A stretch of DNA of 27,904 nt from Vermamoeba vermiformis (lineage: Eukaryota): positions 496,001 through 523,904 of the forward strand of contig JBEWZL010000302.1 in NCBI GenBank assembly GCA_045837725.1, in the 5' to 3' direction. Below, piece after piece: positions 1-23,265 of the stretch. Both the position numbers and the translations under genes were made by a program. The notes under the pieces are model-generated. The model did no database searches. It saw only the letters and a list, made by a program, of their open reading frames with translations, and was not told where the DNA came from. Numbering within the stretch: position 1 is the stretch's first letter; every line of letters begins with the position of its first letter.

Positions 1-2586
1 CAGTGGGATATGAACTGTGAATGTGGTTCCTTCGCCGAGTTTGCTAGCGACAGTGATGACACCGCCGTGCAGCTTAGTGAGTTCTTGAATGAGCGCAAGA
101 CCAATGCCTGAGCCTTCGAAGCTTCGGCCTTGTGAGGTTTCGACCCGATGGAATCTACGGAACATGTTGGGCAGTTCGTGTTCAGGAATGCCCACGCCCG
201 AGTCCTTGACGCTAAGTTCGACGTGATCGCCAACTTTCTTTAGCTCTACGCGGATGTGTCCTTTGAGTGTGAACTTGTAGGCGTTGGAAATCAAGTTCAT
301 GACAATCTTCTCCCACATCTCTGTATCGACGTAGACTAGTTCGTCTATAGCTTGAACTTCGACAATGTAATCTAATGAGGATTGCTCCATGACTGACGTG
401 AAGAGTTGACAAAGTTCACGTGTCAGCTTGGTAAGGTCTGTAGGGGTAAAGCAAATTTGAGCGCGTCCAGCTTCAATGCGCGAGAAGTCCAAGATAGTGT
501 TAACGAGCTTCAACAGCCGCAGTGCATTTCTTTGGATCAAGGTCTGGCGAGCTTTCTGACGCTCGTTGAGTGGATCGGTTTTGTCAGCAAGAGAATCGGC
601 CAAAGGTCCCAACATTAAGCTGAGGGGCGTGCGGAACTCGTGACTGACGTTCGTGAAGAACAAAGTCTTCGCGTGATCGATCTTAGCCAACTCTTCTGCG
701 CGTCTCTTCTGCTCTTCGTAAGATCTGACGGTGTCCAAAGCCTTGGCAATGTGACCAACGACCATGTCAAAGAATGATTTGTAGTCTGCGTTGTAAAGTT
801 GACGAGGACTAATGCCAGCGACAAATACACCGATAGGCTTCTCTTTTGCATCGGAAATGATCGGCAATACGATGGCCAGATCTGGTGACTCGGGCCAAAT
901 ACCTCCTGGAAGCCGACCGACTTTGTTGTTCAAATCGCTGACCTTGATGGAGTGCATGGCATTAATCACTGCCGAGAATGGCCACACGCAGTTGTTAGAC
1001 TCGATGTCAACTTTTTCTGGGCAAGCTGCGTGACCAGGTTCGATGCCTGTGTAAGACTGCAGAACCAACGTCTTCTCGTCGTCAAAGAGGTACATGAGCG
1101 TGAAGGGCAGGTCAGCAGGGCACGTGTTCAGTGCTTTGGAGAGGGCCATGCAAACATCGCGCGTTGTGCCTGTCTTGTCGGTGGCACTAACTTCACGTAG
1201 CAGGTCCATTCTGCGAGTATTAAGCACTTTCTTGGTAGTTTCGAATGTCACGTTGATTACACCAACCACTTTCATTTCCTCGTCGAAGATTGGAGAAAGT
1301 GAAAATGTAAAGTAGACTTCCTCAGCAAATCCATTGCGTTCCATAACGAGCATCAAATCTTGTTGCAAGTTAGAGCTTTCGCCTTGTAGAGCTCCTTCGA
1401 GCATTGGCATAATTGAGCCCTTGATATCTCCCCAGATCTCCAGACCCTTCTTGCCCATAGCAGGATGTTTGTCGCCAAGATAAGGACGATAAGCGTCGTT
1501 ATATAACAGATAAAGATCTTTGCCCCACCAAATACTCATCGGAAATTCGTTCTTCAAGCAGATGTTGACCGTGATGACAAGACTTCGAGGCCAGGAGGTA
1601 ATAGGACCCAAGCCGGACTTGCTCCAGTCAACTCCGAGCATGTATTTGCCCATTTCACCTAATAAGTCAATTAGTGATGAGATTTCTAGATTTTTAGTCC
1701 GGATTTAATCCGTACCGCCAGATTCGATCAGCTCGAAAAAGTTTCGCGGAAGGTTAGTACCCGTTTTAACGACCGGTAAGATCGTATTGTTGACGCTCGA
1801 TGGTTCTTTGCTGGCTGCGGTGGCGGTCATTTCCTGATCGGGATTCGTCGCGCGTGGCAGTCGCAGTGTCACGGTGAATTTAGTTCCTTGGCCTTTACTG
1901 CTTTCCACCGATATTTTGCCACCCATAAGCTCTACGAGACCTTTGCAAATAATAAGTCCGAGCCCAAATCCTCCGAATTGTGTTGCGATGGAATTGTTCG
2001 CCTGTGCAAATCTTTGAAAGAGTCGCTTTTGTTCCTCTTCCGTCATTCCAATGCCAGTGTCTAAGACGTAAAATAACAGCTCGTATTCATCTGTGGTAGT
2101 GTCCAGCGTGTATTTCAAGCCAACTGTGATCGTTCCTTCTGGTGTGAATTTGAGCGCGTTGCCAATCAAATTGATGGCGATCTGCTTTAATTGTGTTTCG
2201 TCCGCCTTCACGAATAGATGCTCTTCTGGAAACTCTATGACTATGCGTTGCTTGGGATTGAGGTTCGGTTTAAATATTCGAATAACGTCTTGAATTGTTT
2301 TGGTTGTGTCTACGACGGAGGGATGCAGATCGAGCTTCGCTTCTTCCAGTTTAGCTGTGGTAAGAAACTTGCTAGTGACTGACATTTGATGCTTCACGCT
2401 AACGTCTATGCCATTGAGGTAATCGTCAAGCTCGCTAAGAGTCTCTGCATCTATTTTCGACCGCAACGAATTCAAAGCATTTCTTAGTTGCTCTAAATTG
2501 CCAAATATTCCTTGCAAAGGACTTTGTAGTTCATGACAAATATTCGTCATGTAGTTCCGGAGGTCTGTGCCCTGTGCTTGATCCAT
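1..2586 (-). CDS. Sensor histidine kinase with two kinase modules (HisKA-HATPase, PAS, GAF-like, HisKA-HATPase); 3' end lies outside the window
   Basis: Exon 2586-1716 has H-box NICHELQSPL, N-box NLIGNALKF, DTGIG and GGFGLGL. A 57-nt GT-AG intron (1715-1659) joins it in frame to an exon open from 1658 to 1, reading GEMGKYMLGVDWSKSGLGPITSWPRSL...MSIWWG...YNDAY (bacterial-type PAS-associated segment), later FFTNVSHEFRTPL, NLISNAYKF, DSGVG, GSGIGL. The true start is uncertain (possible upstream intron 2838-2613). Confidence 0.9.
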
Positions 2587-3332
2587 TCTGTCAGGCCACT
2601 GCTAACCTCACTTTCTGTTGATAAATTATGTCAATAGGTATACGAATTAAATTTAACTTGATGTAAAAATAATTAGCTTTAGGGAGAAGGTTTGAGCTAA
2701 CTAACTCCAAATCCATTTCGCACAAAATATAAAATTCAGTTTTGCAACGCGATAAATTGTAAACCTTCCTCTACTACTACAATTTTCAATAAACGCATTT
2801 TGTTATTAAGAGAATATAAAATAATCGAATAACATTTACCTATTGCCTCGGACTTGAGGTGTTGCACGGGAAGTTGTAGTAAAATCATGCGGGATACTTG
2901 GCAAAGCTCGAATTTGCTCACGAAATTCCAAACTGAATCAAGTTTACGCATGTCGTTCCGCACCAAGGTTTGGGTTGGATGTGGCGGTCTGGCCCGAACG
3001 TAGAAGCATCCATGTTGGCTCGTATAGAAGCGTAATAGGCCATAGATACATTGTGTTCGATGGTATTGCGACCTCGTTAATTCCTTTTGAAGCGATGTGA
3101 TTGACAAATATTTTCTAAACTCCGGAAAATTCGCTCAAATCTCCTAAATGCCCCGAACTCTTCCCGATGTGGCATTACCACGGTAAATCGTTATCACGTA
3201 TCTTATTGTTGCATTACATAAAGCGAACGTTTGTTAATTAATTTCAGTTTAATGTTACAATTTAGTTCGCATATTTACATGGCAGCTGTTATTTACATTC
3301 GTTATTTCGAGGCCCGTGTTAAACAAAAAGCG

Positions 3333-4558
3333 CTAATTCTCGAGTTCGTTGTTGTGTGAAACGCGGGATGACATCACTGTTCGCCGCAAAGCGAGGTACG
3401 GTGTTTTTGTGGTTCCAAACACAGCCATGTGCACGATCCCAGTTGTGTTCGTAAAAATCGTGAAGAAGGCAACGCCAACTGCATCGAGTTCTGTCTTGCC
3501 TTCAGAGATTTGCACCATGCGCAATATGTCTCTAGTAATGTTGATAATACCGTAACAAAACAAAAATATTATCATTCGCTTCGCTGTGCTAAAGATTGAC
3601 TTCCTCCACGACGAATTCTCCGCCTTTCCACCCGCCTTTTTCCACGACTTAATCAGAATAAGCAAGCAGGGATTACGAAGTCTATGAGCTTACCTTGACT
3701 AGCCTATCAATGAGCAGTGCAAAAAAAACCTCCGCAGCAACGACGAGAATAAGCGAAGGGATCCAGAATGCGTAAAGAGCCACGTTCTTTGTCGTGAACG
3801 CTACGCTGCACCTGTTGAAGAAAACAAAAAATTTTAATTGACCTGGTCGCCAGCCTTTAATTAAGCTTAGAAATGCAACGTACCATAGCTCTCGACCACT
3901 ATAAAGGTCCAATACTAAAAATGTAATTGCTGGCGCGAGTGGTACACCCCAAGCAGCAAAGATCATGGCAGCTTCGGCAAGTTTTGGTCGTTTTAGCATT
4001 TGCGAGCGGCCAATAATAACAAATAAGTCGATACTTAAAATAAGTACCCAGATATTCCAACTTATGTAACCGTAGTAGACAAAAAAACCTAATATTCTAA
4101 TATTAATATTTAAAAAAAATGCCACGCTCTAATTACCTACTTACCTTGTATTCTGCATGCGGTAGATTCCGGATTGTCAAAAGGCCGGTCAGCTGCTTGA
4201 GGACAATTAAAATTTGTTTTGCAATCCCGAGATGGCGAAAAATTTAATACCATAAATATTAAAATACGAGTCAATAATTTTTATTCTTATTTAATCAGTC
4301 TATTTGTGATCACAATAACTAATTTTCAACCAAAGCTATGTTTGCAAAAATTTACTTACCTAAAGAGTTGATTACGATGCCAACATTTGTCAATAAGCAG
4401 GATCCAATCGAATATAAGAATACTCTCGAAGGAAACTTTCGGTTGCCTGCGTCACAGCTATAAGCAATCAGGAGGAAGAGATTGCAAACCAGGGAAATCC
4501 AAGCCAAGACATCTGTAAGTATTAACAAAGCCGAGGTCGTCTCAGCATCCATAACCAT
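3333..4558 (-). CDS. 7TM GPCR, Dictyostelium cAMP-receptor-like (CAR/Crl) or Fsl-like
   Basis: Five exons spliced by eye give about seven hydrophobic segments, RKFPSR after TM1, CRIQGFFVYY at TM3, W-GVP in TM4, WC in ECL2 and GIVHMAVFG in TM7. Introns have canonical GTAAG/GTACG donors. Confidence 0.8.
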
Positions 4559-4725
4559 CGAATTGTTGCTGTCATGCAAGCATTTAAAACGGTTATCTCT
4601 CCGAAGAACCGACAGAAACTATCTAAAGCAAATCCAAGGGAGTTTTCTAGATAGAAAGAAAATTTGTTTTTGCCAACGCAACACAGATAACTTTCGATAA
4701 ATCGATTGGGCACCACTTCGCGGAC

Positions 4726-7143
4726 ATGGCCGAGCTAGAATCAAAGACCCGCGACGAGCTGATCGAGGAGATCCGCAAGTTGCGGACGCAGGTCATTACG
4801 CCTCGTGAGCGTAATGCAACAATAAGCTATGACAATATGTTTCAATTTGTTGGACTTATGGACCCTCAAGGCAATTTACTCCAAGTGAATCCAGCAGCTC
4901 TAAAAATTAGCGGAGGTAATTTAGACCGAGTATACCCGATAATCTCTGATCTTGTATTCTTTTTGCTTTATGAAATCAAATATGAAAATTTTCTTACCCA
5001 ATTAACCTCAATACTGATTTTTACGTCATACTATAGTCCAATTAGAAGATATTATTGGCGTTCCCGCTTGGGATTCACCTTGGTGGCGAAACATGAGCGC
5101 GGATACACGCATGACGTTGAAGCACTACGTACAAGTAGCGTATAAAGAGAAGAGACTCGTGCGATATGAAGTGGAGATTGAAGCGCCTGGCGATCAAAAG
5201 CTGATTTATATCGATTTTTCCATCAGTCCTGTGTTTGGTACGTGTTTTTTTGACCGATTTCCCGATGCTATATATTATTCACGTCTTATTTGGCTTATGC
5301 CAATGTTAATTAACTATTGCCAATACTACGTGACACGGAAAGTGAATCAAAGTTAATAAGTCTGATCCAATCCACAGATGATGACGGAAATATCAAATGT
5401 TTCATCACCGAAGGTCGAGATATTACCGAAAGAAAACATGCAGAAGATGAAATCAGACGTAAGAACGAAGAATTAAATATGGTAAGAACGATTTCAATCT
5501 ACGACCAAATTAGAATTACATTGCAATTTCATAATTAACGCACAATTACAGCACAAATCAAGTTGCGTAATAATAATTAACTCTAACGACCCTCTATTAG
5601 TTGAACCAAAAGATTCAAGAGCTCGACAAACAAAAATCGATTTTTTTGGCAAATGTCAGTCACGAACTTAAAACTCCTTTGGCGCTCATCCTCGGGCCCG
5701 CTGAAAAGATCCTACGTCAAGATCCATTGATTACTGCAGATGTAAGAGCTGCCATGGAAAGCATTTTGGCAAACGGCAATATCCTGCTTAAGGTAATAAT
5801 CAAATTTTACAAAATTTCTTCGACCAAATTACTTAATTTACTCCGTCTTTTCGAAGCACGTGAACGACCTCTTGGACTTGTCAAAACTCGAAGCAAAAAA
5901 AGCTCTATGTGATTACATCGAAGTCAGAGATTTTTCAAACTATTTGAAAAGACTGAGTTCAAATTTCGAAGTCCTCGCAGTAGACCGCGGGATCCACTAT
6001 GACGTTATCGAAGGAAATGGATTCAAAGTGCATTGCGACGTCGATAAGATGGAAAAGGTTTTCTTAAATCTGCTGTCAAATGCATTCAAATTCACGCCCA
6101 GCAACGGACACATTGTCGTTGAAGTAACACACGAAGAACCCTGTTCACAGAAGCCACGTGGCTTAGTCCGGATCTCGGTGAGAGACTCAGGCCCAGGAGT
6201 TCCCGAAAAACTACAAACAAAAATCTTCGAGCGATTCCAGCAAGGTGACGAAGGTAAGTTTAAAGTTTTTCTGTTTGCAAAGCTAAGTTATTGCTGAACA
6301 GGACTTGCACGTAAATACGGTGGCACGGGCTTAGGCTTAGCAATTGCCAAAGACTTCATTGAGCTTCATCAAGGAACGATCTCTGTTGGATCCTCTTCTT
6401 TGGGCGGTGCCGAATTCATCGTAGAATTTCCTCAATTCGCTCCCAGTGAAGTCAAAGTAACGCGCGACGACAGTGGTAAGCAATGTGAATACCCCCATGG
6501 GAGACTATCGTTAATTCAAGCTGAAATAGGTTCGGCTCTTGGCCTTCAAACTGTTCTCGATGTGAAAAGTCAACTTCCCATTCTCATCGAAAAAGCCGAG
6601 CTTGATGACCTTTCAATGGAGTCCACTAGCCCTTCCGGGGAAAGTTCAACTACCCACGTGACTACCAACGAGAAGGATGTGATCTTGATTGTCGAGGACA
6701 ACATTGCCATGAACACATTCATCAAAGAGGCGCTGGAAGATGAGTTTACAGTCATCACAGCGTTCAACGGAAAAGAGGGACTGAGATTGGCCGAAAAACA
6801 CTTGCCAGACTGTATTCTAACCGACATTATGATGCCGCTCATGTCAGGCGACCAACTTGTTCGCGAAGTGCGCAAAAATCCAGCGATGGACAAAATACCA
6901 ATTATTTTATTAACTGCCAAGGCTGACGACGACGTTAAAGTTCAATTACTACGCAATGGAGCTCAGGATTACATTAACAAACCGTTCAACGTCGAAGATG
7001 TTAAAGCAAGAATATCGAATATGATCACTATTAAGAAAACTTGGCAATCATTAACGAGCACACTCAACGCACAAACAAAGAGTCTCAACGAGTTGATCGA
7101 TGATATTAAGATCTTGTTTAGTCACGACCCCGCTTGTAAATAA
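4726..7143 (+). CDS. Hybrid histidine kinase PAS-HisKA-HATPase-REC
   Basis: Spliced exons give a PAS segment ([13 protein letters not shown]...[12 protein letters not shown]...EGRDITERK), H-box [34 protein letters not shown] and a receiver ([21 protein letters not shown]). Stop TAA at 7141-7143. Confidence 0.93.
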
Positions 7144-7164
7144 ATGTACGTATCTTTGTCGATT

Positions 7165-10100
7165 CTACTGTTTGATCACTAATGGACCAGCAGCAGTCAC
7201 AGGGGTGGTTTGAACGACGTTTTGCTCGATGGCTTTGAACGACTGCAATGTGATATTCAACGAGGCGTAGATCTCTTCGAGCTTGTCTTGAACCAAGAAC
7301 GACTTGGGCGAGTTGGACACGGCGTAATCACTGATTGAGTTCTCCAGAATATTCTTCTCACGGTCGTCTGGGATCAAAGAAGGACGCTCTTGCTCGATCT
7401 GCACGCCCATGCCTGACTGACCCTTGAGTGGTGGCGGGGCTTTCTTGATGGGAACATTGCCTTTAGCGCAGACTGCGTTGAAGTCCCTGAAGTTGTCTAG
7501 CAAGAACTTGACGGCGTCGGTGATCTGTTCGAGTCTCTCTTTGATAATCTCGAAGGCCACGTGGCGGAATGGCATGTAGTTGCTGCTCTTCAAAACCTCA
7601 AAGCTTGGACCAGCATTGTTCAGACCGTACTTGTCAGCTGAGAGAAAAGGTTAGAACTATAATGTCACTCTATGAATGAAGCATACCAGGCAAAATCGTG
7701 AGAAGGTTGGCTAACGGAGTCAGAATGCTCTTCATGAGAGGCGAGAACAACTTGTACAAAGTGGTCGTGTCGGCGCTGGTGTTGTCGGAGCTGCCAAAGA
7801 ATCGGTAAAGTACCAACAACATAGTCTCGTAGACAGCGTTGAAGATAACCATTGTGTAGAAGGTCAAAGGCACCTCATCCTTTCGGATCAAGTTGACTTG
7901 GCTCTGCTCGCCCAGGTTATCTTCGTGCACGCGAGTAGCAGGGTTGTTGAGTACTGGACGAACAGCTTGCTCGTACCAGTCCCTGTCTTCGTGCGAGATC
8001 TCACGTAGAATGTGCATGAACTTGCCAAAGTGCGAGTCCTTGCGAGGAATGAGCAGGCCATTCTCGACAACGCATTCAGGTCCTCCTTCACCTTGCTCGA
8101 TGATCAAGTCAATTGCATTGATGGCATCTTTGGCAGTGCGGATAGGACCGAGATGACCGAATTGTGGCGCTTGTTGTTCCTTGAAGAAGCCGTAAACTTG
8201 TGCGGATTGCGGACCCAAGAACAAGTTGGGAATGGCATCAGTTTCGAACACCTTGCGCAACTGCTCGTACAAGGTGCTGATCGTTGGGTAAGGTTGAGTG
8301 GTGGCGAAGAGTTGGTTCAAATCAACACTGATCACCGAGTTAGATAACTTCGACTTTAGCTTTGAACTTACTGTTTGCGGTAGTCTTGCACACCACGCAA
8401 CAAGAACGACTTGTTCTGGTCTTGCTGAGTGAACTTTCGGTATGCCATAAGCCACTCTTGACGTTGTTGAGGGTTCAAGTCGATCCACTCCTTATGAGGC
8501 ACGAGTGCTCTCACCTCAGGGTCACGAACGGCAAGCATCCAAGCCTCACGCATCTGATCCTCGACAACAGGATCTTGGGACTTTTGTGCTTGCTGTTGAG
8601 ACTTGCCAGACTGTGGCTTGTTGCTCTCCTTGTTGGCTGACTTCTTGCGAGTAGAGTTGGACAAAGAGCTCTTGCTGTTGTTGTTCTTGAACTCGATCTC
8701 CTCGCTGCCGTCGTCGTTGCGGACACTGCTGATCAAGGTTGACTTGACCTCAGTTGCTTGGGCCTTTTGGTTGTTCGCTTGACGTTGCTTGAATTGATTG
8801 ATCAACTGTTGCTTCACGGCATCGTATTTCTTGGACATTTGGAACAACCAATCAGCAACGATTGCCTCGTAAGGTTGTTCGAACTTGGCGAATCTAAGTA
8901 GAGAATTAACGATGACTACTCTTAAAAGACCTAAGTACTACCTTCGCACGGTGTCAATGGAGAACTTGGTAAGCTTGAATTGAATACCAGGCGAGAAGTA
9001 GTTCTTGTTCTGCGGGAAGTTGATGTCGAAGAAGTGAGGAGCTCCACCAACAGCATTGACGAGGTTCATCACGTAGCCCAAGTGCAACATCTCTTGCTTG
9101 GCGACTTCAATGATGGTGTCTCGCCACTTGGCTACTTTTTCGACTCGCTCTTTGGGCCATCCCACTGGTGCAAGCATTAGAACCATCTCGCAATAGAATA
9201 TCACTTACTCATTTCTTCAGGTTGCTTCAAGGACCAAGCACCAAACAAGTATTGCAACATCAAGCCTTGCTCTTGGTCGGCAGCGATAGTCAATGCGTAG
9301 AGCAATTGATCACGAGTCTTGATGGCGAAGCTAAACACCGTATTAGTACCGTCGAGTCGAGGACTTACAACACTTACTGAGCATCGTAAGGGTGTGATTC
9401 AGGCTGTGGTACGGGCACAACAGGTGTGACAGGCGTGACATCGGCACGGCTGGCCAAGATATAGTCCGTCAAGATTCTGCGCTTGGCTGAGCTCATCTCA
9501 CGAGTGACAGGCATGAACCACGTCTTGTCGAAGTTGACCTTGTTGATCATCTCGGCAATCATAAAGCCCTTAGTCTTGACTTCGTTGGGGTCAATCAAAC
9601 TGAAGCGGGTTGCCATCGTAGGATAGAGCAAGTAGTAGTAGCGCAGAACATTCTTTTTGACGAAGTCCCAGCTAAGTCTTTCCTCCAAGGGAGCCTACAT
9701 GGCGTTAGTACTAGAAGAAACTGCTTATGTAATACTTACTCGCAACAAGTGTGCGTCGTTGGGCAGAACACGAACACCAACCCAGAACACATCGTCCCAC
9801 TGGTCTCGAGTGACAAAGCCTCCGTCTTTAGGCAGCTCGCTCACAAACAACAGCTGAGCAGCACCTGAGAAAGTACCTTGAATCGAGACAACGCCGACAC
9901 CCTTGGCATCAGTCGTGCATTGACCCACAATTCCTGGGCGGTAGCTCGGGCAGAACGGATCGAAGGTCACAATTTGTGGCTTTTCCACTGTTCCAACGGC
10001 GCTGCTGGCGACTTCAACAAAGTAAGTAAACGGAACGAATCGTACAATCACCAGCTTACACTGCAGGTCATTGTCAGGGAAGTTATCGGGATTGAAGTAC

Positions 10101-11930
10101 TGGAAGATGTAAACAGTCTGGTTAGCCCATGGCTTGCCTACGAAGAGTTAGTTTGTGTTAGTTTAATCGTGGAGGACTTACCAGCTTGGTACGCGTGGAA
10201 AGATAACTGAGTTGTCTCATGGTGGTCGAGATAGATGTCCACTTGGTCGCCGTTGAACGTGACAGGCTCTTCGGTCAGAAGCGTGACTGTCTTGCCGGCC
10301 TTGTCCTTGGCCAAAGCCACAAATGTGCCCTCGCGCACCTGTTGGACGGTTGCTTTGCCTCGGAATGGAATCTCAACGATTCCATTGCGAGCGTTGTAAT
10401 ATTCGGTACTGTAAGGGATGTCTCCGATGAAGATTTGTTTGTTGTCTTTTGTGTTAAGGTACAGCTTGAACTCGCCGAAGTTGAACTTGGGACCCAGAGT
10501 CGGGACTAAGCTTGCGTCGAGGTTCTCGTATTTGCTAGCGACAGCCCAGTACTTGCTGTCGTCACGATTGGCGAATGGAACAGTGGCCAGCATGTCCATA
10601 GTAAGGATTTGCCTGAAGCGAATGTTAGAACTGATTTACGTTCAATCAGTAAGACATACGTCTTCTCGTCGACTTTAATCCACGAGGGAGAAAGATGTTG
10701 AGGCTGCTTGTCAGTACCAGCGCCAGGAATGGGATCCTTGTAAGTCAGCAAGCGACCTGAATTTCGAGTTAGGTCGATTTTGCAAGTGTTCTCGTCTCAA
10801 TCAGCAGTACCTGCAGGAACGCCCATGGGCTCATATACAGGCGCGTCAGGCACATCGCGATAGTTCCAAAGTTCGATCGTTCCATAGACGCTGCCATAGG
10901 CAGGAGTAGGAGGACGATCCAAGTTCTTAAGAGTCAACCAAATAGTCGGGTGGATGGTGTTGAATAACATGTAGCGAACGGAAATACCATCAGCGCGACC
11001 TTTGTCAAGAGCCTCTTTCATTGCTTTGAGCACCGGCGATGATTTGACAGCATCGTGATCAAGAGCCAGTTTTTCTTTTCGGATCACGAACTTGAACGAA
11101 CCAGAACAGCCTAAGTATGGTTAGATGCGTTTCAAAATGCTTTAAAGTACCTTCATTCTGCGGAACAAATGGAGTAGCCGGATAATTGACGGTTGAAATT
11201 TGATTGAAATTGAATATTCTGTTGTGCGAGATGGAAGGATCTGATCCTACAAGAACAGGGACTTGACCTAAACAGTGTAAGCAGCGATGTAAAACTTAGG
11301 TTTGAATCTTACCCGATGAACCTCCCAGGCGTAATTCTCCGCTGAAGATCTGTGATGTGTAAATTCCAGACATATCCAGATCAACCATTTTGGGCTTGGT
11401 GCGATTTCCATGCAGGAGGTGACCGAGCAACTCCACGGACATGCCAACCATTTTAGAATCATGCGCGACATTGCCGTCAATCTCAACTAAAAATTGCAAC
11501 GGTTAAGGATCTTGATATCTTATACTTAAAATTAAACTATATAACATAATTTATTTGAGTAAACGCGGGCAACAAACGCGAACTGAACTTTTAGAGACTT
11601 AAACGGTTTGAAGCAAATCCGGATTAACGGATCGTCCGACCAGAAACTAGCCTTACCTGACGTTACTTTAGTATCTTCCCACCAAAAGGAGTTCGATCCA
11701 TTAAGATTCCAATACCCAGCATTGCCAGGATTGTTAACGGAATCCGAGACCCACTTTTTGAACTCCTCATCCGTGTAGTTTGCTTGCAATGAACCGTCGG
11801 GATTCTTAATATACAATGCAAGGGTGCCAACGTCAATATTCTGACCGTGGTCATTATTGGAGGTTGGCACATCTGCGACGTATTTTCCTTTAAAATGAAT
11901 TCGCGGATTCGTCCAGCAATTCGAGGCCAT
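7165..11930 (-). CDS. vioB: VioB-like protein (iminophenyl-pyruvate dimer synthase / RebD-StaD family) with C-terminal ferritin-like domain; multi-exon
   Basis: Collinear matches to VioB as remembered: PRIHFKG..ADVPTSNND (VioB PRIHFRG..VNAPTANRD), TLGPKFNFG (DLGAKLPLG), NGIVEIP (HGIVDLP), VRVLPND (LRVLPDD), VLRYYYLLYPTM (VMAYYELVYPFM), FMPVTREMS (YMPSTRELS), LMLQYLFGAWS (VMLQYLYAAYS), QEMLH (EEMIH), EQGEGG, SHF. ATG at 11930, stop at 7165-7167, canonical introns. Confidence 0.88.
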
Positions 11931-12107
11931 TGTCGACAGTATTGTATAACACAATAAAATAATATCAATTGTGTTAACGTGTTTCTGAACACGCCGTTGA
12001 CAAACAAACGTGAGATATTTTTGTCTTCAAAGTTTTCCCGCTTCAAAAAAACGGTAATATTTTGTTACTGCCCTACAAACGTAACACCATAATACAAGTT
12101 ATTATAC

Positions 12108-14210
12108 ATGTATCTCAAGCTAACAGCCGTATTTGTGACGGTCGCTCTGCTCGTTTTCAGCGCTTTCGCTGACGACGACGCTGCTAGAACCCAGAAAACC
12201 TTGGATAGTAAGCTTGTTTTTACAACCACATTACTCAGATTTTAGTTACTAACTTTCCGTTTAATTTCAGATTTTTTCAAGGCCACCGAAACTTTAAACT
12301 GTGATCTGTGGGTCGACCAATTTGCCGACGATTACGTTATTCAGGATCCTGCTGATAGCCCGCCATTCAGTGGTACCAAGGCTCAATTGATGGAGAGTTG
12401 CTTGGAAGGAAATCCTAAGACTTTTGCTTGGATGAACGTTACCACTCAATACTTTATTACCGGCCTTTCTGCCTCTGCTCGCTGGAACGTGGCCGGAAAG
12501 AGCAAGGACGGCTGCCCCTTGACTTTCGGTAATATTTACCGCTCTTCACCAATGCCGTTAAATAAGTGCAATACTTAAATTTTTCTGAATAGGCGGAGTT
12601 GATTCATTCGTATTAAACAAGGCCGGAAAGATTAAGCAGCTTACTGGTTATTGGGATCCTTCTCAGATGCAAACTCAGCTTCTGTAAGTCAGCATCTGGA
12701 TTTTTGCCGTTTATGGAAAATTTTTATTTTGTTAACAAATTTATGTAGGTGCTCTAACCACACCAAGAAATTGTATGCCCGTACGATGGAGGTTTACTCG
12801 TACATCCATCAATTGGATGCCGATAAATGGGCCGCTCAATTTGTTCCCGATGCAGTTATGAGCTGCCCTATGTCCGCTCCCGCATATCATGGCCGCGAAG
12901 CTATCAGGTAATTACTTTATATAATGTAAATTTAACTTTAAGTCTGAAATCGCGTCAATCACCGGTAATCAGGTAAATATCTCGGTTATTTTTAACCTAT
13001 TCCAAATTTAGAGCTTACGCACAAACCGCTTTCTCGAACTACGATTACTACGATTACGTCATTACTAAGGACTTCGTTGTTGACGGTCAATCTGTTGTTT
13101 TCTGGCGTGTTGGTATGCCACCCGCAAACACTTTGAATTTCTTGCTGAACTTTTTCAATAGCTTCTGCCTCTTACCTTGGTTGCCGCATCAAGCTTTTGG
13201 CCTACAACACTATTATATACGACGAAGATCTTCAAATTACTGAGTGGCGCGATTACTTCGACGTAACCGAAGAGATCTCTCAGATGGTGAATTGCGAGAA
13301 TGGAACTAACCGCCCCGTTGCTCCTGTTTGGCCCAGCACTTTCGAGTCTGATTTCACTGGTAAGTCATGACGCTATTGTACTATCAACGACTAACAGCGA
13401 TTAGTTGAATTGGACATGTGGCCTGGCTTCGTTTCCAAGGGTCACTTGTGGTACGACTGGACCACTCGCTCGCAACGTGCCGACTACATCGGTAAGTCTT
13501 TTCAACCTGCTATATGCTCTTGCTAATCGAGGTAGACTGGTGCTTGCCTCTCACCGATCAATTGCCTCCCTTCATGAACTACACTTGCACGTACATCATG
13601 CGCGATCACACCACTTACTACATTGACAAGATCAACCCCGCCAAGCCCACTTGCTGCGTCTTTGATAACAGTACGTGTTTACATTCAATTTTTAGTGTTC
13701 CTGTGCTAATTTTCGTTGCTTTTAGACCTCCCTCCTCCAGTTCCTGACTTCGCATCCGGCATGACTTACAACGGCACAACTACCGTCGATGGCCAATTGG
13801 TCTCTTCTTGGTACTTGTTGGGCCCCTTCCCCTACGGTCCTTTCTATTACTGGGCCTCGGTGCAAAACAACTTACCCGTCAAGTTCAAGGGTCCCACTAC
13901 TCTCAACCAAACCACGCTCTCCTACAAGACTGTCAACATTCACCCCATTCCTACCGAAGCTTTTGCAGTCCCCGCTGATTGCACCAAGATTTGCGAGGTT
14001 CCCAACGACACTCCTGTAGACGGTTCCAAGCCTGCTCGAGTTCACCACCGCATGCACCACAACCACGTGCCTCATGCCTCGACCACGTCTCACAAGTCTT
14101 CTGGCAGTTCGGAAACCACAGTTGACGATCATGTGCACGACAATGTGAATCCTCATGACTATGCTAACGCTGCCCCTCAGCAATACTACACTGCCCACCA
14201 CGATGAATAG
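12108..14210 (+). CDS. Secreted protein: two SnoaL/NTF2-like domains + LolA-fold (ependymin-related/VioE-like) domain + His-rich tail
   Basis: Signal peptide MYLKLTAVFVTVALLVFSAFA. SnoaL repeats WVDQFADDYVIQDP...GKIKQLTGYWD and WAAQFVPDAVMSCP..YHGREAIR...ITEWRDYFD. From ~13313 PVWPSTFESDF..GHLWYDWTTRSQRADY..CC..PPVPDF..TYNGTTTVDG..LPVKF..FAVPADC. Tail contains HHRMHHNH. Confidence 0.8.
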
Positions 14211-14418: not shown

Positions 14419-17400
14419 ATGACGGCAACCACAAAGCCCATTGATTTGGACGAGCTCTTCCCAAAATACCTTGGGAGCCGCCAAGAAAAAGCTCGATTGG
14501 CCCTTTTGGGTCAGCCTGGCTTGATCTTCAAAAGTTACGACATGACCGGAAGCTACAAATATTTAAATATCAAGACCAAAAGAATGCTATCCGTCGAGAA
14601 CCGAGGTTTATTGAAGATCCATAAACTTTCGTATCCGTGGATCGTAACAATTCACCAGAAAGATAAGACAAATGACGAGATACAATTACACAATGTGGAA
14701 ACGGAGCAGACGAAGCGAGCAAGTTTAACACTTGGAGAAGGCGAGACGTGCAGCGTGCTTCTTTGTAACAGTTCTGGCATCCTTATCGTTACCGATAAAC
14801 AATTTTATTTTATCAATTATGCCACATTCGGCGAAGACAAACCTCGCACGATTGCTTTATCGAGCACAAAATTGCTTGAGAGGGCATCCAACCAATTTTC
14901 CGCTATCGAAGACAACAAAGCACTCATCGCAAACGGATGGCAGTTTCAACTTTGGGACATCGAGACAGGCAAATGCCTGAATACGGCAAATTTAGAGCGC
15001 GAAGAAGACCCAATGCCGTTCCAAATTCTCAGTCTGCGAGATGGGGTGGTGATCGGAAGCACTCTCAAAAAGCTTTACATGTGGACTGATTCAGGTAAAA
15101 TATCAAAAATTAATTAATTTAGGAATTTATTACACGTATTGGTTGACATTTTAGACGTCAATTTTTAAATTGAAATCAGTATTGAAAAAATCATCATTAA
15201 TTTTAATTTAAATTTTAACTTGCAGGCGTAAACTCAATCCAAATCCGCGATCCATGCTCTTGCTTCATTATAGATGATGGAAAATTATTCGTCGCAAGTA
15301 TTACCGGGCAGATCTCGGTTTACGAATTTCCAAAACCCGCCCTGGTGCGTGAGTTGAATGTTGGTGCTGCAGCTGGGATGAATTTTCTCGAGCAAATGCA
15401 AAGTAGCAGAATCAATGACTTGATTTACTTCGATGAAGTCCTATTTGCCATAACAGAAAACGGTATGACGGATGAGATCGCGAATTAGTTCCGAGTCTCA
15501 CACTTTTGCTCTCAGGCGACCTACAAGCGTGGAACACTACACAAGAAAACAGTACTGCTCCATTGAAGACGCAAACTTTGAAGGGAAAAGCGAAGAGAAT
15601 GATCAAACTCGACGGCAAGATCTATATTCTCGTCGTCCGCAAAGGCAAGCACGAAGAGCTGGTTCTCTACAATCCCCACGTCAAGAGATTGCTCGCCGCC
15701 AATGCAGTGTCCGCGAGCGCGAGCACGCCTTCTGTTGCTGCCGGTGAAGTGCGCAAGGACGGTTACTTGATGGTCAAGGCATACGACTCAAAGAAGGGCA
15801 AGCGACGATACGTGCAGCTCCGCGACAACATTTTGTACGAGTACTCATCGCCTAGCGTACGTAATTCTTTAGCACGATTGTATTATGCTAATCCTGAGGA
15901 CAGGACATCGCGCCACTTGGCACCTACGTGATGAGCCCTACTGCGAGCATTGAGGTCAGCGCCTCTAAAAAATCGAAACAAGGCTACGTCAGACTCCACT
16001 TGAACGACAAACAGTTCATTACTCTCAGCACTGATAACGCCGTCGAGGAAGACGAATGGTACAAGGCTCTGAATGCTTCCATCAAGGACTTGAAGTTCTC
16101 TTCGTTCGCGTACTCCGTGCCATTCACGAGCATTCAACTCGTGAAGGACGAGCGCGGTAATGTGATCAAGTTAGGCAAAGGAGCGGAGTCTTTAGTAGTG
16201 CGAGGTATGTTGATCACTATTTTTCGAAGCAAATCTAATGGTCTTCAAGCTTTGTTGAACGGTCGTGATGTTGCCGTGAAGCTTTTCAACCAGAACACTC
16301 CGTCAAAGATCTTCAAGAACGAAATCGAAATATTAAGGTACGTGCGGAGTACTTAGTGCAACTCAAGCTAACGGTATTTAGCGCGCTAAGACACCCGTGC
16401 ATTATGGAGCTTGTTGGTGCTTGCGTCAAGCAGCCCAACTTAGCACTCGTTCAGCCCTTGATGCTCCGAGGTTCATTGTATGACGCCCTTCACGGAGCCA
16501 AGAAGCTTGATCCCACGAAGTACACGTGGAAGTTGTACTTGAAGATTGCAAATGACATTGCTTCAGGTAAGTCAAATGCCTCTCTTTGGCGTTTATTCAA
16601 TAAACTAACGCGTCGTTGCAGCAATGAACTACCTGCACAACTTCACGTTGAACAACGTCAAACAGCCGATCATCCATCGTGATTTGAAACCTTCCAATTT
16701 GCTGGTCAACTCTTTGGATGCAGACAGCAATGCCGTGACAGTTAAATTGACCGATTTTGGTATCAGTGCTATTGATGCCAAGACTGAGACCAGCTCGAGC
16801 GGCACAACTGCGTACATGGCACCTGAAGTTCAAGAGCGTGGTGAGAGCGTGACCAAGTCCGATGTGTACAGCTTTGGCATTGTTTTATGGGAGATGCTCA
16901 CGCAAGCGGTGCCCCCTACTGTCAAGCGAGTCGCGTACGTATTGTGATTGCTGCTGAAGTGATCATACTAACCACAGTGACAGTAACGAGCACGCAAGGA
17001 GTATCGCCCCGAATTCATTCCCCGAGTATGCGCCTGCGGAATTAGTTTCGCTCATTCGAGGTACCAAACAACACAATGTGTTTAAGGCCGCTAACAGCTA
17101 TTTTAGAATGCACGTCCGTGTCACCGAACATGAGACCTACTTTCGAGGGTGTCATTGAACGTCTTATGGATTGCACTGTGGCAATGATTTCCAGCAACAG
17201 AATCAACGAGCCAGTGACCTCGCCAGCCACCGCCAATCAAAGTGCTACCAGCGGTTTGGTCATTCCCAACAAGCTCTACGGTCGCGAGCCTGAAATCAAG
17301 TCCGTATTGAAGGCATTCGATCGCTTCAAGAACGGAGCCAAGGAAATTCTGTTTATTAAGGGCTATGCTGGCATTGGCAAGTCCTCCTTCATTGAGAAGA

Positions 17401-20400: not shown

Positions 20401-21645
20401 GAGCAGTTCATCTAGCGCTGGTTCTCCTCTCCCTACAAACTCCTCGCCTAGTCTCACCCGAAAGGATGCCAAGACCAATCTTCAAGAAAAGAGCGAAAAG
20501 TCACACTTGAAGTATCTAGAGGCCACGCACTACTATAACAAGAGCAAAGAGCATGCCATCAAAGTTGGCAGCTTGGTATTTGCTGGATGGGCCGCGGAGT
20601 TCTGTGCTGACTTCTGCACCGACTTGGGCTGGGAAAGCATGACACGTGTTTATGCTTACGACGCGTTCAAACTCTACGAAGAGGCTTCTGCATCAAGCAA
20701 AGTTGAACACATCAAGAGCAATTACGACGATGTCCTTGCCGAGTTCACGAAAATCATTGGCACAACAGAGTCGAGCAGTGCTGTCGATGAAAGTTCTGTC
20801 AACCCTCATAGCATTCTACTCCTCAAGCAGTTTGGTCGTAACTTAATGTCACAAGTCAGAAATGAGACTAAAAACCCTAGCCTTCGTGATGCTATCGATG
20901 TGTACTCCGATTACATCACGAACATGGATCTTGCCTCGCTGACGACAGACTCAAGCGAGTTAAGTTCAGCAAGCAGCACGATCTCAACCAGCTTGGAGAC
21001 GTCGCGAAGCACGGTAAGTTGCAACCACGAATAATTAAGTGCATTCGTTTTACTGACAAGTCTCTTAGGAAATTCAAGTTGAAAAAGAGCTCGCAAGCAC
21101 GCTGAACATGGTCAAACTAATTCAGCAGGTGTCAAATCCTGATGTCGATATTACACACTCGCTCAGCTTATTGATCCCCAACAACATTTGTCTCCCGTTG
21201 CTCTTGACGCCTGCTAATTTCAAAGAAATCATTACGATTTACACGGTCGCTTTCATAGTGAACTTCGGTCAGCATCCCAAGTATCACCTGGCTTTATTCT
21301 TGTACGTACTATCAGCTTTAATTGTTAACTCTGGCTAATTAATTACTTTCAGAGAGCCTAGTGCTGAACTGCGAATAGTGTTCCAGCTAACGGACTTTAT
21401 CCCGAAAGAAACATCTGTGCCTCTCCAGGGCGAGACTGCCGATGTGCCTGTTGGAGTTAAAAACTCATTACGACCAAGTAAGTTGCTTGCTTTGTTATTG
21501 TTTGAACAAAAACTAATGCCACTTTACAGTTGAGCAATTGTTGGATAGTGTTCAAGCAGAGTTCAGCTATTGTCGTGTGGTTAGAGATCAATACATTCAG
21601 CATGTGCTCAAGATGACTTGTGCTTTCCATGCTTCAGACAAATAA
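14419..21645 (+). CDS. Large multidomain protein: WD40-like beta-propeller, PH, TKL protein kinase, STAND/AAA_16 NTPase, TPR-like helical region
   Basis: LWDIETGKCL-type repeats. PH: KDGYL..KRRY..EWYKAL (~15750-16090). Kinase motifs GKGAES, VAVK, HRDLKPSN, DFG, APE, SDVYSFG (~16160-17170). LYGREPE, Walker A GYAGIGKS, Walker B LDDLQWAD, GNPFF, FEHDEIQ. The exons checked join in frame through GT-AG introns to TAA at 21643-21645. Confidence 0.88.
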
Positions 21646-21983
21646 GACATTGCTTTGTAATAAATTATTTTTCATTGAATTGAGCCTATTAAAACACTCA
21701 AACAGTACACAATTTTCTTTTGAATGAGGTGGCTTCTCTTATCCCATTCAAAGGTCTGGGCTGTAAATCATCCCTAAGCCTTTATTTGATTTAGTAGTCT
21801 GTAATTAACAACTGACCAAAAGTTCATGTCAGACAATCAAGAACAAAACAAGCTGCCATGTAAAGAAAAACTGAATGAAGCCTTTCAGCCAAATGAACAT
21901 CTCAATTATCCAATTGACACACTGAAGGACTCTTGCTTGGGACCCAACTTTTTCCTGTGGGAACAGGTAATCTTCATGCAGTC

Positions 21984-22417
21984 TCAATCTGGATGCCTTT
22001 GATTTGATAGTCTATGGTTGGGGATGCAAAATGCAGTGGCAATTTTTTTTGGTGATGGATACCATGGAAAACAAAATGGCAACCATTTTGCCACCTGTTC
22101 ACTGTGGTAAACATGTACTTCAAGTGTTCTTAATTGATGCAGAACTTGATGGCACCAATTGATGTGCCAGGCTAGATGACATTCTTGCCGCTCTTGTCCT
22201 TGTCCCAAGGTGAAGGCATGTTGAGCATGAACATTACCAGCTGATGCAAGTGCACCTGGTACATCATTTTGCTGTGCTGATTGGTAATTGAAATGCTGGG
22301 CAAAAAGTTCAGCATAGGAATGATGCAGCCAGAGTCCAACAGGACTGTGTGGTCTGACAGGCTGTGGTAAAGTTTGCCTTGGAAAAAAACTTGGTCAGGT
22401 GTGTGGGATTTTGTCAA
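21984..22417 (-). pseudogene. Decayed His-Me finger (His-Cys box homing endonuclease-like) gene fragment
   Basis: Minus-strand reading VHLHQLV...KFCIN*EHL...VNRWQNGC with in-frame stops resembles the CxNPxHL...N..RNxC motif of zf-His_Me_endon proteins. It lies in a CpG-depleted tract. Confidence 0.45.
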
Positions 22418-23141: not shown

Positions 23142-23265
23142 ACTTGACTAGGGCCATTTCCGGTAGGAGAAAGTTTGCATGGCCAAAACGGGCGTTTATT
23201 ATCAGCATATGCTTATTATTTAGCATATGCTAAAATGTATCGAAAACATATGATGAACTAGATAT

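What the first reader, a model, noticed from the sequence alone, without database searches (positions are those of the whole stretch)
7165..11930. Full-length, intron-containing eukaryotic homolog of violacein synthase VioB
Seen: motifs are collinear with VioB from the N-terminal PRIHF through YYxLxYPxM/MPxTRE to the ferritin-like domain (EQGLMLQY, QEMLH, EQGEG, SHF), split by many canonical introns, so this is not bacterial contamination. Known: VioB/RebD/StaD are heme enzymes coupling two indole-3-pyruvate imines in bacterial bisindole pathways, and violacein is toxic to protist grazers. Inference: an old, domesticated horizontal transfer giving a protist bisindole-type chemistry or another oxidative role. 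Partial VioB-like proteins may already be known in eukaryotes; I cannot check this here.
Basis: partly seen in the sequence, partly recalled or inferred. Interest (0 to 1): 0.85.

Follow-up and report, generated by a model that had tools for sequence, protein, structure and literature searches.

The report
Amoeba gene related to violacein enzyme VioB
A free-living amoeba of the Vermamoeba type carries an expressed, 13-intron nuclear gene of bacterial origin for a distant, full-length relative of the enzymes that start violacein and staurosporine synthesis, but what it makes is unknown.

Summary
On the minus strand, 11930..7165, lies a gene of 14 exons and 13 GT-AG introns encoding 1346 aa. A spliced contig in run X3 shows all 13 junctions. 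A Vermamoeba vermiformis transcriptome protein (P0166) is 88% identical. Of 36 listed differences from that strain, 35 are synonymous.

The protein matches the VioB model TIGR04492 collinearly. It has a beta-rich N-domain with no Pfam family and a PF12902 ferritin-like domain. It scores 215 bits, against about 800 for RebD/AtmD-type synthases, 1870 for true VioB and a cut-off of 1250. So it is not a VioB orthologue.

In the N-domain tree it is sister to all fused VioB and chromopyrrolic-acid synthases (SH-aLRT 98-99). Placing it with its best-scoring N-only relatives is rejected (p-AU 0.0006). The ferritin-domain data do not reject that placement (p-AU 0.68).

All other relatives found are bacterial or of unnamed origin, apart from two unnamed environmental fragments. 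Composition matches neighbouring genes. This points to an old bacterial transfer.

No partner pathway gene lies in the window. Bisindole chemistry is possible but not shown. I found no paper reporting this gene.

The parts
7165..11930 (-). Whole gene, ATG to stop: 14 exons, 13 introns, CDS 4041 nt, 1346 aa
   Evidence: Gene model. All 13 junctions are seen in the spliced contig of run X3. 88% identical over 1343 columns to the transcriptome protein P0166.
11657..11930 (-). Exon 1 (aa 1-92), with PRIHF at 11906-11892
   Evidence: Hits TIGR04492 positions 6-99.
11313..11486 (-). Exon 2 (aa 92-150). Intron 1 (11656-11487, 170 nt) precedes it.
   Evidence: Joint 11486/11657.
11151..11267 (-). Exon 3 (aa 150-189). 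Its acceptor was corrected to 11268 by the transcript.
   Evidence: Joint 11265/11311 (cut +2)..
10811..11110 (-). Exon 4 (aa 189-289)
   Evidence: Hits TIGR04492 positions 206-283.
10660..10756 (-). Exon 5 (aa 289-321), carrying the conserved GRLL motif
10182..10612 (-). Exon 6 (aa 321-465)
10060..10137 (-). Exon 7 (aa 465-491). The following intron 7 (10059-10012, 48 nt, in frame) was found only through the transcript.
   Evidence: Joint 10011/10060. P0166 lacks these 16 residues.
9740..10011 (-). Exon 8 (aa 491-581), an Ig-like beta-sandwich part of the N-domain
   Evidence: VIA-align matches aa 442-579 to intimin and S-layer Ig-like domains, Z up to 8.6.
9378..9694 (-). Exon 9 (aa 582-687): helical end of the N-domain, with YYYLLYPTM (9640-9614) and MPVTRE (9514-9497). 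This is the best-conserved stretch of the family.
   Evidence: TIGR04492 positions 504-582, E 6e-14. M613, M647 and P648 (P0166 numbering) are invariant in 83 rows.
7687..9330 (-). Exons 10-13: ferritin-like domain (PF12902). Candidate metal ligands are E707 (9272-9249 motif), E752/H755 (9096-9082), E1053/E1056 (8098-8084) and H1075 (8035-8018 motif).
   Evidence: Pfam. Residues conserved in at least 90% of 41 fused bacterial relatives. Coordinates.
8372..8893 (-). Exon 12 (aa 802-976): mostly a lysine-, glutamine-, serine- and asparagine-rich insertion in a variable loop of the ferritin-like domain. The environmental fragment P0014 covers only its tail, which matches.
   Evidence: The matching loop in the bacterial homologue P0016 is short and low-confidence (pLDDT under 50 at 159-169).
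7165..7637 (-). Exon 14 (aa 1190-1346): C-terminal helical extension starting at AGPSFE, then the stop codon
   Evidence: AGP is conserved in the fused relatives, and A-G-x-x-F is nearly invariant in the stand-alone set.

Best explanation
This is a functional nuclear gene of an amoeba of the Vermamoeba vermiformis type. It encodes a cytosolic 1346-aa enzyme of the VioB/StaD/RebD superfamily. The N-domain (about 670 aa) is a stack of beta-sandwiches ending in a conserved helical segment. It is fused to a PF12902 ferritin-like four-helix-bundle domain that keeps the family's Glu/His motifs. The gene came from bacteria long ago. It has since gained 13 introns and host-like composition, and it has diversified. 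It is a deep sister lineage to all characterised iminophenyl-pyruvate dimer (chromopyrrolic acid) synthases, not one of them.

Inferred mechanism: an iron-dependent oxidase (heme b and/or a carboxylate-bridged iron site) that uses O2 or H2O2 to oxidise or couple an amino-acid-derived imine or enamine supplied by a separate amino-acid oxidase.

Shown here: gene structure, transcription and splicing, purifying selection, homology, domain architecture and tree position. Inferred only: cofactor, reaction type and substrate.
For: Structure and expression:
- All 13 joints are present in a spliced 3790-nt contig.
- Three reads of run X23 (same species label as X1, the run that may be the source of this DNA) run from exon 13 into exon 12 sequence with synonymous changes.
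- An independent Trinity protein, P0166, is 88% identical.
- 35 of 36 listed coding differences from run X3 are synonymous.

Homology:
- TIGR04492 is hit collinearly, and the whole protein scores 214.8 bits, E 1.8e-63.
- PF12902 is found.
- 83 near-length relatives include named VioB, RebD-like and CCA (AtmD) synthases at 22-30% identity, most with a best local alignment over 53-59% of the query.
- The amoeba protein has the same residue at 118 of the 234 columns that are at least 90% conserved in 41 fused bacterial proteins. These include PRIHF, GRLL, VRVLP, MPxTR, and E707, E752, H755, E1053, E1056, H1075.

Phylogeny:
- In the N-domain tree of 81 rows, the split {amoeba + 25 fused} versus {N-only} has SH-aLRT 99.
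- A 33-row set gives 98.
- Holding the amoeba with its best-scoring N-only relatives costs 28.3 lnL, p-AU 0.0006.
- For the ferritin domain, holding the amoeba clade with the fused clade is not rejected, p-AU 0.68.

Origin:
- 213 relatives were found in 185,579 prokaryote species genomes.
- None was found in IMG/VR.
- Only 3 of 234 hits in 1.84 billion representatives exceed 41% identity.
- CDS GC3 is 0.60, against 0.44-0.64 in neighbouring genes.

Fold:
- The AF2 N-domain model has pLDDT 88, pTM 0.92 and is mostly beta.
- The ferritin fold of the nearest bacterial homologue has pLDDT 91, with best PDB match 3hl1.
Against: - No biochemical datum exists for this protein or for any member outside the VioB/CPA-synthase crown group.
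- The TIGR04492 score is a sixth of the equivalog cut-off and about a quarter of RebD/AtmD-type scores.
- The ferritin-like half scores far higher against stand-alone bacterial ferritin-like proteins (155-175 bits) than against VioB (18-35) or CPA synthases (39-87).
- In the free ferritin-domain tree it does not join the fused clade; the backbone has at most 82 support.
- The amoeba branch (1.06) and the fused-clade stem (1.04) are both long, so the sister relation could owe something to long-branch attraction.
- The trees are 'quick' searches with SH-aLRT support only. The AU group was named after the tree was seen. An 81-row AU test never finished.
- No amino-acid oxidase, VioE, P450 or other pathway gene lies in the window.
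- Fold searches found no catalytic fold in the N-domain.
- No invariant His, Cys or Tyr that could be an obvious heme ligand appears in the 83-row N-domain alignment.
Confidence: 0.6

Rival explanations
1. It is a true iminophenyl-pyruvate (IPA imine) dimer synthase. With an amoebal L-tryptophan oxidase encoded elsewhere, it would make chromopyrrolic-acid- or violacein-type bisindoles in the amoeba.
For: It has the same two-domain order as VioB/StaD/RebD and is sister to that clade. Half of the clade's near-invariant residues are kept, including all candidate metal-site motifs. The ESM Atlas puts it nearest to 1078-aa actinobacterial PF12902 proteins, score 0.96.
Against: It scores 215 bits on the VioB model, against about 800 for enzymes known to do this chemistry. 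It lies outside, not inside, the characterised clade. The other half of the clade-conserved residues differ. No partner gene lies within 27.9 kb. The paper searches run turned up no report of a VioB homologue in an amoeba or other eukaryote. No search was made for amoebal bisindole products.
Confidence: 0.15
2. The fusion arose independently. An N-only gene and a stand-alone ferritin-like gene, a pair that lies adjacent in many bacteria, were transferred and fused in the amoeba lineage or in an unsampled donor. The protein would then work like the uncharacterised split bacterial pairs, not like VioB.
For: The highest pairwise scores of the N-domain are to N-only proteins (L001, 153.7 bits), and those of the ferritin domain are to stand-alone proteins (155-175 bits). 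N and F genes lie within two genes of each other, or on the same fetched locus, in 18 of 87 loci (union). At least one other fusion, P0262, sits inside the N-only part of the tree, so fusions recur. L054, 837 aa, is its sister there, but no ferritin-like part was detected in it.
Against: The N-domain tree and the AU test place the amoeba with the fused clade and reject the L001 group. The ferritin-domain data fit a common fused ancestor at least as well. In the seven split pairs where the ferritin gene is the immediate neighbour of the N gene, it lies upstream, which is the reverse of the fusion's order.
Confidence: 0.2
3. It is bacterial contamination, an assembly chimera or a decaying pseudogene.
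For: The family is otherwise bacterial.
Against: 13 spliceosomal introns are removed in transcripts. The frame of 1346 codons is open. 35 of 36 listed differences between strains are synonymous. The gene is flanked by intron-bearing eukaryotic signalling genes. Its composition is host-like. The same gene occurs in an independent transcriptome.
Confidence: 0.01

Closest known systems
VioB, iminophenyl-pyruvate dimer synthase of the violacein pathway (NCBIfam TIGR04492; here P0220 Collimonas, P0224 and P0237 Janthinobacterium)
   Same: It has the same order of a roughly 670-aa N-domain and a PF12902 ferritin-like domain. Matches are collinear over profile positions 6-926 of 1003. PRIHF, GRLL, MPxTR, E..QY, EMxH, EQGEG and SH motifs are shared.
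   Different: It scores 214.8 bits, against 1870.5 for true VioB and a cut-off of 1250. The best local alignments to the VioB rows are about 25-31% identical, most over 18-27% of the query. The ferritin half scores only 18-35 bits against VioB. It carries an insertion of about 150 aa and 13 introns, and it is eukaryotic. No vioA, C, D or E lies nearby.
StaD / RebD / AtmD chromopyrrolic acid synthases of indolocarbazole pathways (here P0195 'RebD-like', P0206 'putative CCA synthetase' of Actinomadura melliaura, P0184, and Streptomyces and Lentzea rows)
   Same: They share the fused architecture. Among named proteins these are the best-scoring full-length relatives (up to 206 bits for the unnamed P0180). 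Together with VioB they form the clade to which the amoeba protein is sister.
   Different: These enzymes score 791-815 bits on TIGR04492, against 215 for the amoeba protein. The amoeba protein lies outside their clade, separated by a stem of about 1 change per site. That they are heme b enzymes is recalled knowledge, not tested here.
Uncharacterised bacterial 'split' relatives: N-domain-only proteins of about 600-830 aa (L001, L006, L016, L081, P0001, P0002 and others), with or without an adjacent PF12902 gene
   Same: They give the highest pairwise N-domain scores (L001, 153.7 bits). They share the YYLLYPxM and MPVTRE motifs used to find them. No Pfam family covers the N-domain in either group.
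   Different: They are separate genes, often with the ferritin gene upstream. In the tree they fall on the other side of a split with 98-99 support. Their gene neighbourhoods vary: TonB receptors, DedA/VTT proteins, kinase-AAA-TPR proteins and an unknown 440-aa family.
Stand-alone and CDGSH/globin-fused PF12902 ferritin-like proteins (P0016, P0017 Cystobacter fuscus, P0003-P0010, P0188 and others)
   Same: Outside the amoeba-like fragments they are closest to the amoeba ferritin half, at up to 41% identity over the exon-13 query and 155-175 bits for the whole ferritin half. They share the same C-terminal AGPxFE helical extension.
   Different: They have no N-domain. Some carry Fe-S and globin modules instead. 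Their function is unknown.
PDB 3hl1, ferritin-like protein CC_0557 of Caulobacter (a structural-genomics entry)
   Same: It is the best solved-structure match to the model of the nearest bacterial ferritin-like homologue P0016 (Foldseek E 2.6e-4, TM 0.63 on the target).
   Different: It is 18% identical and has no assigned function. The model is of P0016, not of the amoeba protein. No sequence-level PDB hit was found for VioB, the N-domain or exon 13.

Membership tests
VioB equivalog (NCBIfam TIGR04492) | Whole-protein score at or above the curated cut-off of 1250 bits | tested here: not met
   The orthologue P0166 scores 214.8 bits. True VioB (P0220) scores 1870.5.
VioB/StaD/RebD superfamily (fused iminophenyl-pyruvate dimer synthase-type proteins) | Collinear N-domain followed by a PF12902 ferritin-like domain in one polypeptide | tested here: met
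   TIGR04492 positions 6-926 are matched in order by the exons. PF12902 is found. The full-length alignment to 41 fused proteins is.
VioB/StaD/RebD superfamily | Falls phylogenetically with the fused clade rather than with N-only or stand-alone relatives | tested here: met
   N-domain: SH-aLRT 99 and 98; the alternative placement is rejected at p-AU 0.0006. Ferritin domain: the union is not rejected, p-AU 0.68, but it was not recovered in the free tree. The protein is sister to the characterised clade, not inside it.
VioB/StaD/RebD superfamily | Conservation of the clade's near-invariant residues | tested here: inconclusive
   118 of 234 columns that are at least 90% conserved in 41 fused proteins are identical in the amoeba protein. 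All Glu/His motif residues are kept. The half that differs includes many aromatic and charged positions.
Chromopyrrolic acid / IPA-imine dimer synthases (function) | Heme b cofactor and coupling of two indole-3-pyruvate imine molecules | not testable with these tools
   This needs protein expression, UV-vis and ICP measurements, and LC-MS assays.
Chromopyrrolic acid / IPA-imine dimer synthases (function) | Genomic or functional partnership with an L-tryptophan oxidase (VioA/StaO/RebO) and downstream enzymes | tested here: not met
   No such domain was found in the window pieces scanned with Pfam. Those covered all ORFs of at least 120 aa not overlapped by a longer ORF, plus several smaller ones. 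Eukaryotic pathway genes need not be linked, and the rest of the genome could not be searched.
Pfam PF12902 (Ferritin-like) | Score above the gathering threshold of 22.3 bits | tested here: met
   49.0 and 37.5 bits on two exon-level pieces.

The most novel reading that the evidence does not exclude
A bacterivorous amoeba has domesticated a bacterial bisaryl-coupling oxidase. It uses it either to make its own tryptophan- or other aromatic amino-acid-derived dimer (a signalling, pigment or defence compound, which would be the first such pathway in Amoebozoa), or to intercept imine intermediates of toxic bisindoles such as violacein made by its prey. Because this lineage branches below all known VioB/StaD/RebD enzymes yet keeps a conservative ferritin-like domain, it could also show what the ancestral reaction and cofactor of the whole superfamily were.
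Probability: 0.12. Interest if true: 0.85.

Novelty: new variant of a known kind. Interest (0 to 1): 0.5.

Why it matters
VioB, StaD and RebD open the only known routes to the violacein and indolocarbazole scaffolds. I found no solved structure by sequence search. Their N-domain has no Pfam family.

A eukaryotic, intron-rich, expressed member under purifying selection shows that this enzyme type works outside bacteria. It also supplies a deep outgroup for working out which residues are ancestral.

If the amoeba enzyme couples amino-acid imines, it would point to unrecognised secondary metabolism in a very common water-system amoeba. This amoeba hosts Legionella and giant viruses and grazes on bacteria (recalled from the abstracts listed).

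If it does something else, it becomes the first experimentally approachable handle on the large, unstudied family of N-only and ferritin-like gene pairs.

On the sober side, bacterial genes are common in this amoeba. About 10% of its genes have bacterial best hits (PMC7125106, passages read). The transfer itself is therefore not surprising.

Tried and rejected
- **Whole-genome search.** No genome is held for this window. A VioA-like partner could therefore not be sought outside the window.
- **First gene model.** It had 13 exons and was wrong in two places. It was replaced.
- **Word-indexed search with exon 9.** It found only two N-only proteins.
- **JGI metagenome contigs.** Seven relatives were found. 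Their N-domain matches lie in uninterrupted frames; six contigs have 55-73% GC and one (L086) 40%. No eukaryotic orthologue was among them.
- **IMG/VR viral contigs.** None found, so a giant-virus route has no support.
- **ESM Atlas with exon 9.** Only small unnamed bacterial clusters came up.
- **Kinase plus AAA_16 plus TPR gene.** Such a gene lies next to the N gene in 7 bacterial loci, and the window has a kinase-AAA_16 gene at 15.4-21 kb. I tested whether this reflects co-transfer. Only generic domain similarity was found (27 and 17 bits), so the idea is rejected.
- **Unknown 440-aa neighbour families in bacterial loci.** I tested two of them as divergent ferritin-like proteins. hhalign gave probability 0.1-0.2%, so this is rejected.
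- **ebo link suggested by earlier notes.** Only 1 of 130 neighbour proteins in my loci is EboE. An EboF-like partial transcript of V. vermiformis is mentioned in PMC5133447 (passage read), but its authors could not exclude contamination. This was not pursued.
- **Fold searches of the N-domain.** Foldseek gave no global match (TM at most 0.14). VIA-align gave only Ig-like and SOD-like beta-sandwich matches, Z at most 8.6, for aa 289-579. Residues 1-290 were barely tested.
- **AU test on the 81-row N-domain set.** It did not finish in three calls and was replaced by a 33-row set.
- **RNA raw-read runs X21-X23.** They laid only 11, 2 and 21 reads, all 95-99% alike, so they come from a diverged strain. 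Expression level cannot be judged from them.
- **Paper searches for a eukaryotic or amoebal VioB.** They returned no paper reporting one.
- **Closed supplements.** The HGT tables of PMC7125106 are supplementary and closed. They may list this gene.

Full report
**1. The observation**

The region 7165-11930 holds, on the minus strand, a chain of open frames that start at an ATG (11930) and end at a TAG (7167-7165). I joined them at GT..AG sites into a first model of 13 exons.

Laying public runs on the stretch gave a direct test. Run X3 (Logan contigs, library type guessed as RNA, organism label B) holds a 3790-nt contig that skips 13 segments.
- Eleven of these are my introns, exactly or within the stated ambiguity.
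- One is an extra in-frame 48-nt intron (10059-10012).
- One moves the acceptor of intron 2 to 11268.

The corrected model has 14 exons and 13 introns. Twelve introns are 40-54 nt and one is 170 nt. All are GT..AG, and most have a CTAAC- or CTAAT-like branch site. The CDS is 4041 nt and encodes 1346 aa.

**2. The gene is transcribed, spliced and constrained**

- Besides the X3 contig, three reads of run X23 (same species label as X1, the run that may be the source of this DNA) continue from exon 13 into sequence that reads as the end of exon 12 with synonymous changes (table 7).
- The 90%-identity cluster of an exon-13 fragment contains P0166. This is a 1374-aa Trinity-derived protein labelled Vermamoeba vermiformis in EukProt.
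- P0166 is 88.2% identical to my model over 1343 columns with 3 gaps. It shows the same two corrections.
- Of the 36 coding differences between X3 and the window that one search listed, 35 are synonymous. Another 28 differences were not shown. The 4 differences listed for X21/X23 are also synonymous.

The window therefore comes from an amoeba of the Vermamoeba vermiformis type, though not the EukProt strain.

Its flanks fit a eukaryotic chromosome.
- Two HisKA/HATPase histidine-kinase units lie at 1-2601 (-).
- A histidine kinase with a receiver domain lies at about 4651-7143 (+).
- A kinase plus AAA_16 STAND-type gene lies at 15.4-21 kb (+).

The CDS has GC 0.496 and GC3 0.60, inside the range of its neighbours (GC3 0.44-0.64). 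The introns have GC 0.37.

**3. What the protein is**

Exon translations hit NCBIfam TIGR04492 (VioB) at profile positions 6-99, 206-283, 504-582, 662-721 and 744-926 of 1003. PF12902 is found on two pieces. No Pfam family covers the N-terminal 670 aa, either here or in the bacterial relatives.

Whole-protein scores on TIGR04492:

| Protein | Bits |
|---|---|
| Amoeba orthologue P0166 | 214.8 |
| P0182 (unnamed) | 716 |
| P0206 (AtmD-type) | 791 |
| P0195 (RebD-like) | 807 |
| P0180 (unnamed) | 815 |
| True VioB, P0220 | 1870.5 |
| Curated cut-off | 1250 |

So this is a full-length homologue but not an orthologue. It is much farther from VioB than the indolocarbazole enzymes are.

**4. Relatives**

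- A pattern scan of one genome per prokaryote species found 213 confirmed relatives, of which 80 were kept. It was biased to proteins sharing the YYLLYPxM and MPVTRE motifs.
- Nearly all of these are N-domain-only proteins of about 600-830 aa, from Acidobacteriota, Myxococcota, Chloroflexota, Bacteroidota, Actinomycetota and other phyla.
- A PF12902 gene lies close to the N gene in 18 of 87 loci (union; Pfam check). It usually sits directly upstream.
- N genes are tandemly duplicated in 7 loci.
- A full-length search with P0166 found 83 near-length relatives. They include named VioB, 'RebD-like chromopyrrolic acid synthase' and 'putative CCA synthetase' (Actinomadura melliaura). Identities are 22-30%, most over 53-59% of the query, and the best score is 206 bits.
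- The exhaustive HMMER search with exon 13 against 1.84 billion representatives gave only 234 hits at E <= 1e-3.
  - After the amoeba's own fragment (94%) come two short environmental proteins, P0014 (45%) and P0015 (47%).
  - After those come stand-alone bacterial ferritin-like proteins, at 41% identity or less.
- P0014 matches the tail of the amoeba's insertion, and both fragments carry the C-terminal extension. With the amoeba they form a clade (SH-aLRT 93). Their source organisms are unknown.
- No relative was found in IMG/VR.

**5. Phylogeny**

- N-domain, 81 rows: the amoeba is sister to all 25 fused VioB/CPA-type rows. The split from the N-only rows has SH-aLRT 99. One other fusion, P0262, sits with L054 among the N-only rows.
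- N-domain, 33-row subset: the same split has support 98. Forcing the amoeba to join its best-scoring N-only relatives is rejected, with delta lnL 28.3 and p-AU 0.0006.
- Ferritin domain, 78 rows: the backbone is unresolved, and the free tree does not join the amoeba clade to the fused clade. The constrained tree that joins them is 10 lnL better than the tree the quick search found, p-AU 0.68.
- The lower similarity of the amoeba ferritin half to VioB (18-35 bits) than to stand-alone proteins (155-175 bits) fits fast evolution on the stem of the fused bacterial clade. It does not prove it.

Caveats:
- These are quick searches with SH-aLRT support only.
- Two long branches meet.
- The AU group was chosen after the tree was seen.
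- L029, which comes from a genome flagged unpublished, is among the rows, but nothing depends on it.

**6. Structure and residues**

- AlphaFold2 on residues 1-672 of P0166, with an 83-row alignment, gave pLDDT 88.1 and pTM 0.92. The model is mostly beta-strand with a helical C-terminal segment.
- Foldseek found no global PDB match, with TM at most 0.14.
- VIA-align matched aa 442-579 to intimin and S-layer Ig-like domains (Z up to 8.6) and aa 289-470 to SOD-like sandwiches (Z about 7). Residues 1-290 were barely tested.
- In the 83-row alignment the invariant residues are G231, G266, E440, M613, M647 and P648. No invariant His, Cys or Tyr marks an obvious heme ligand.
- The nearest bacterial ferritin-like homologue, P0016, folds confidently (pLDDT 91.3). 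Its best match is the unassigned structure 3hl1, followed by Dps and bacterioferritins.
- The amoeba protein is identical at 118 of the 234 columns that are at least 90% conserved in 41 fused bacterial proteins. These include E707, E752, H755, E1053, E1056 and H1075.

**7. Function**

What is shown is a conserved, expressed, two-domain protein of the VioB superfamily. What is inferred is an iron-dependent oxidative reaction on an amino-acid-derived imine or enamine. That inference rests on three points.
- The only characterised relatives do this. That VioB, StaD and RebD are heme enzymes acting after L-Trp oxidases is recalled knowledge.
- The Glu/His motifs of the ferritin-like domain are retained.
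- PF12902 genes recur beside amino-acid oxidase genes. The fungal lodA/lodB-like clusters are one case (PMC4417212, passages read). An earlier unchecked note of this scan on a bacterial cassette is another.

Against a bisindole role stand the distance from the characterised clade and the lack of any partner gene in the window.

The gene neighbourhoods of the bacterial N-only relatives vary and do not name a pathway. They include TonB receptors, DedA/VTT proteins, kinase-AAA-TPR proteins, an unknown 440-aa family, and one EboE among 130 neighbour proteins.

**8. Origin and novelty**

Several facts point to an old bacterium-to-amoeba transfer with an unidentifiable donor.
- The family is distributed in bacteria.
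- The amoeba lineage sits below the crown of the fused clade.
- The gene has 13 introns.
- Its composition is host-like.
- Two relatives at 45-47% identity appear to share its derived insertion (only P0014 reaches it, and only its tail).

For comparison, the published means for V. vermiformis CDC-19 are 3.5 introns per gene overall and 2.7 for bacterial-like genes (PMC7125106, passages read).

Searches of the paper library returned no report of a eukaryotic VioB homologue. The searches combined VioB with eukaryot and HGT, VioB with amoeba, the family and domain names, and Vermamoeba with violacein. The main text of PMC7125106 mentions neither VioB, ferritin nor violacein. Its supplementary tables were closed.

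The protein already exists as an unannotated entry in EukProt. I therefore rate this a new variant of a known kind, of moderate interest. The gene is real and unusual, but its chemistry is open, and bacterial genes are common in this amoeba.

Noticed in passing
window 7141-7167: The histidine-kinase/receiver gene on the + strand stops at 7141-7143, and the VioB-like gene on the - strand stops at 7165-7167. Only 21 nt separate the two convergent stop codons. Three reads of X21 carry a poly(A) tail starting about 7163 on the + strand, so the 3' UTRs of the two genes must overlap.
   Followed up: partly
window 12107-14210 (+): A gene is transcribed divergently about 180 bp from the VioB-like start codon. 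It has a signal-peptide-like N-terminus, two weak SnoaL/NTF2-like repeats (E 0.004 and 0.03, both below Pfam cut-offs) and a Cys- and Trp-rich tail with no family. A shared promoter region is possible. Any functional link is untested.
   Followed up: partly
window 15400-21034 (+): A large multi-exon gene encodes a tyrosine/serine-threonine kinase piece, AAA_16 (E 5e-29) and helical repeats. Bacterial kinase-AAA_16-TPR genes sit beside the N-domain gene in 7 loci, but the similarity is only generic.
   Followed up: yes
window 21100-27904: This stretch is AT-rich (GC 0.37-0.41) and holds no open frame of 140 aa or more. I did not look for repeats or RNA genes.
   Followed up: no
window 1-2601 (-) and 4651-7143 (+): Three histidine-kinase units lie within 7 kb. 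Two HisKA+HATPase units are in tandem on the minus strand, one with a GAF domain. A kinase with a receiver domain lies on the plus strand.
   Followed up: no
L005, L007, L024, L044, L048, L050, L069 (about 6-12.5 kb each); L043: N-domain-only genes occur as tandem pairs in 7 bacterial loci and as a convergent pair in L043. The two copies of a pair fall in different parts of the tree.
   Followed up: partly
P0262 (893 aa, Umezawaea) and L054:7107-9617: A second, independent fusion of an N-domain with a ferritin-like domain, P0262, sits deep inside the N-only part of the tree, with L054 as its sister. P0262 has no TIGR04492 hit at E <= 0.001.
   Followed up: partly
L025:10268-11587 and 12 further loci (mainly Bacteroidota and Acidobacteriota); L016:1669-2988 and 3 further loci: Two conserved families of about 440 aa with no Pfam hit lie directly next to the N-domain gene. 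They are not ferritin-like by hhalign.
   Followed up: partly
runs X5-X7, X12: Several runs labelled with other organisms (C, D, E) hold 23-36% of the gene's words. Water and aquifer metagenomes hold 25-30%. None of these runs was laid, so this is no evidence of habitat.
   Followed up: no
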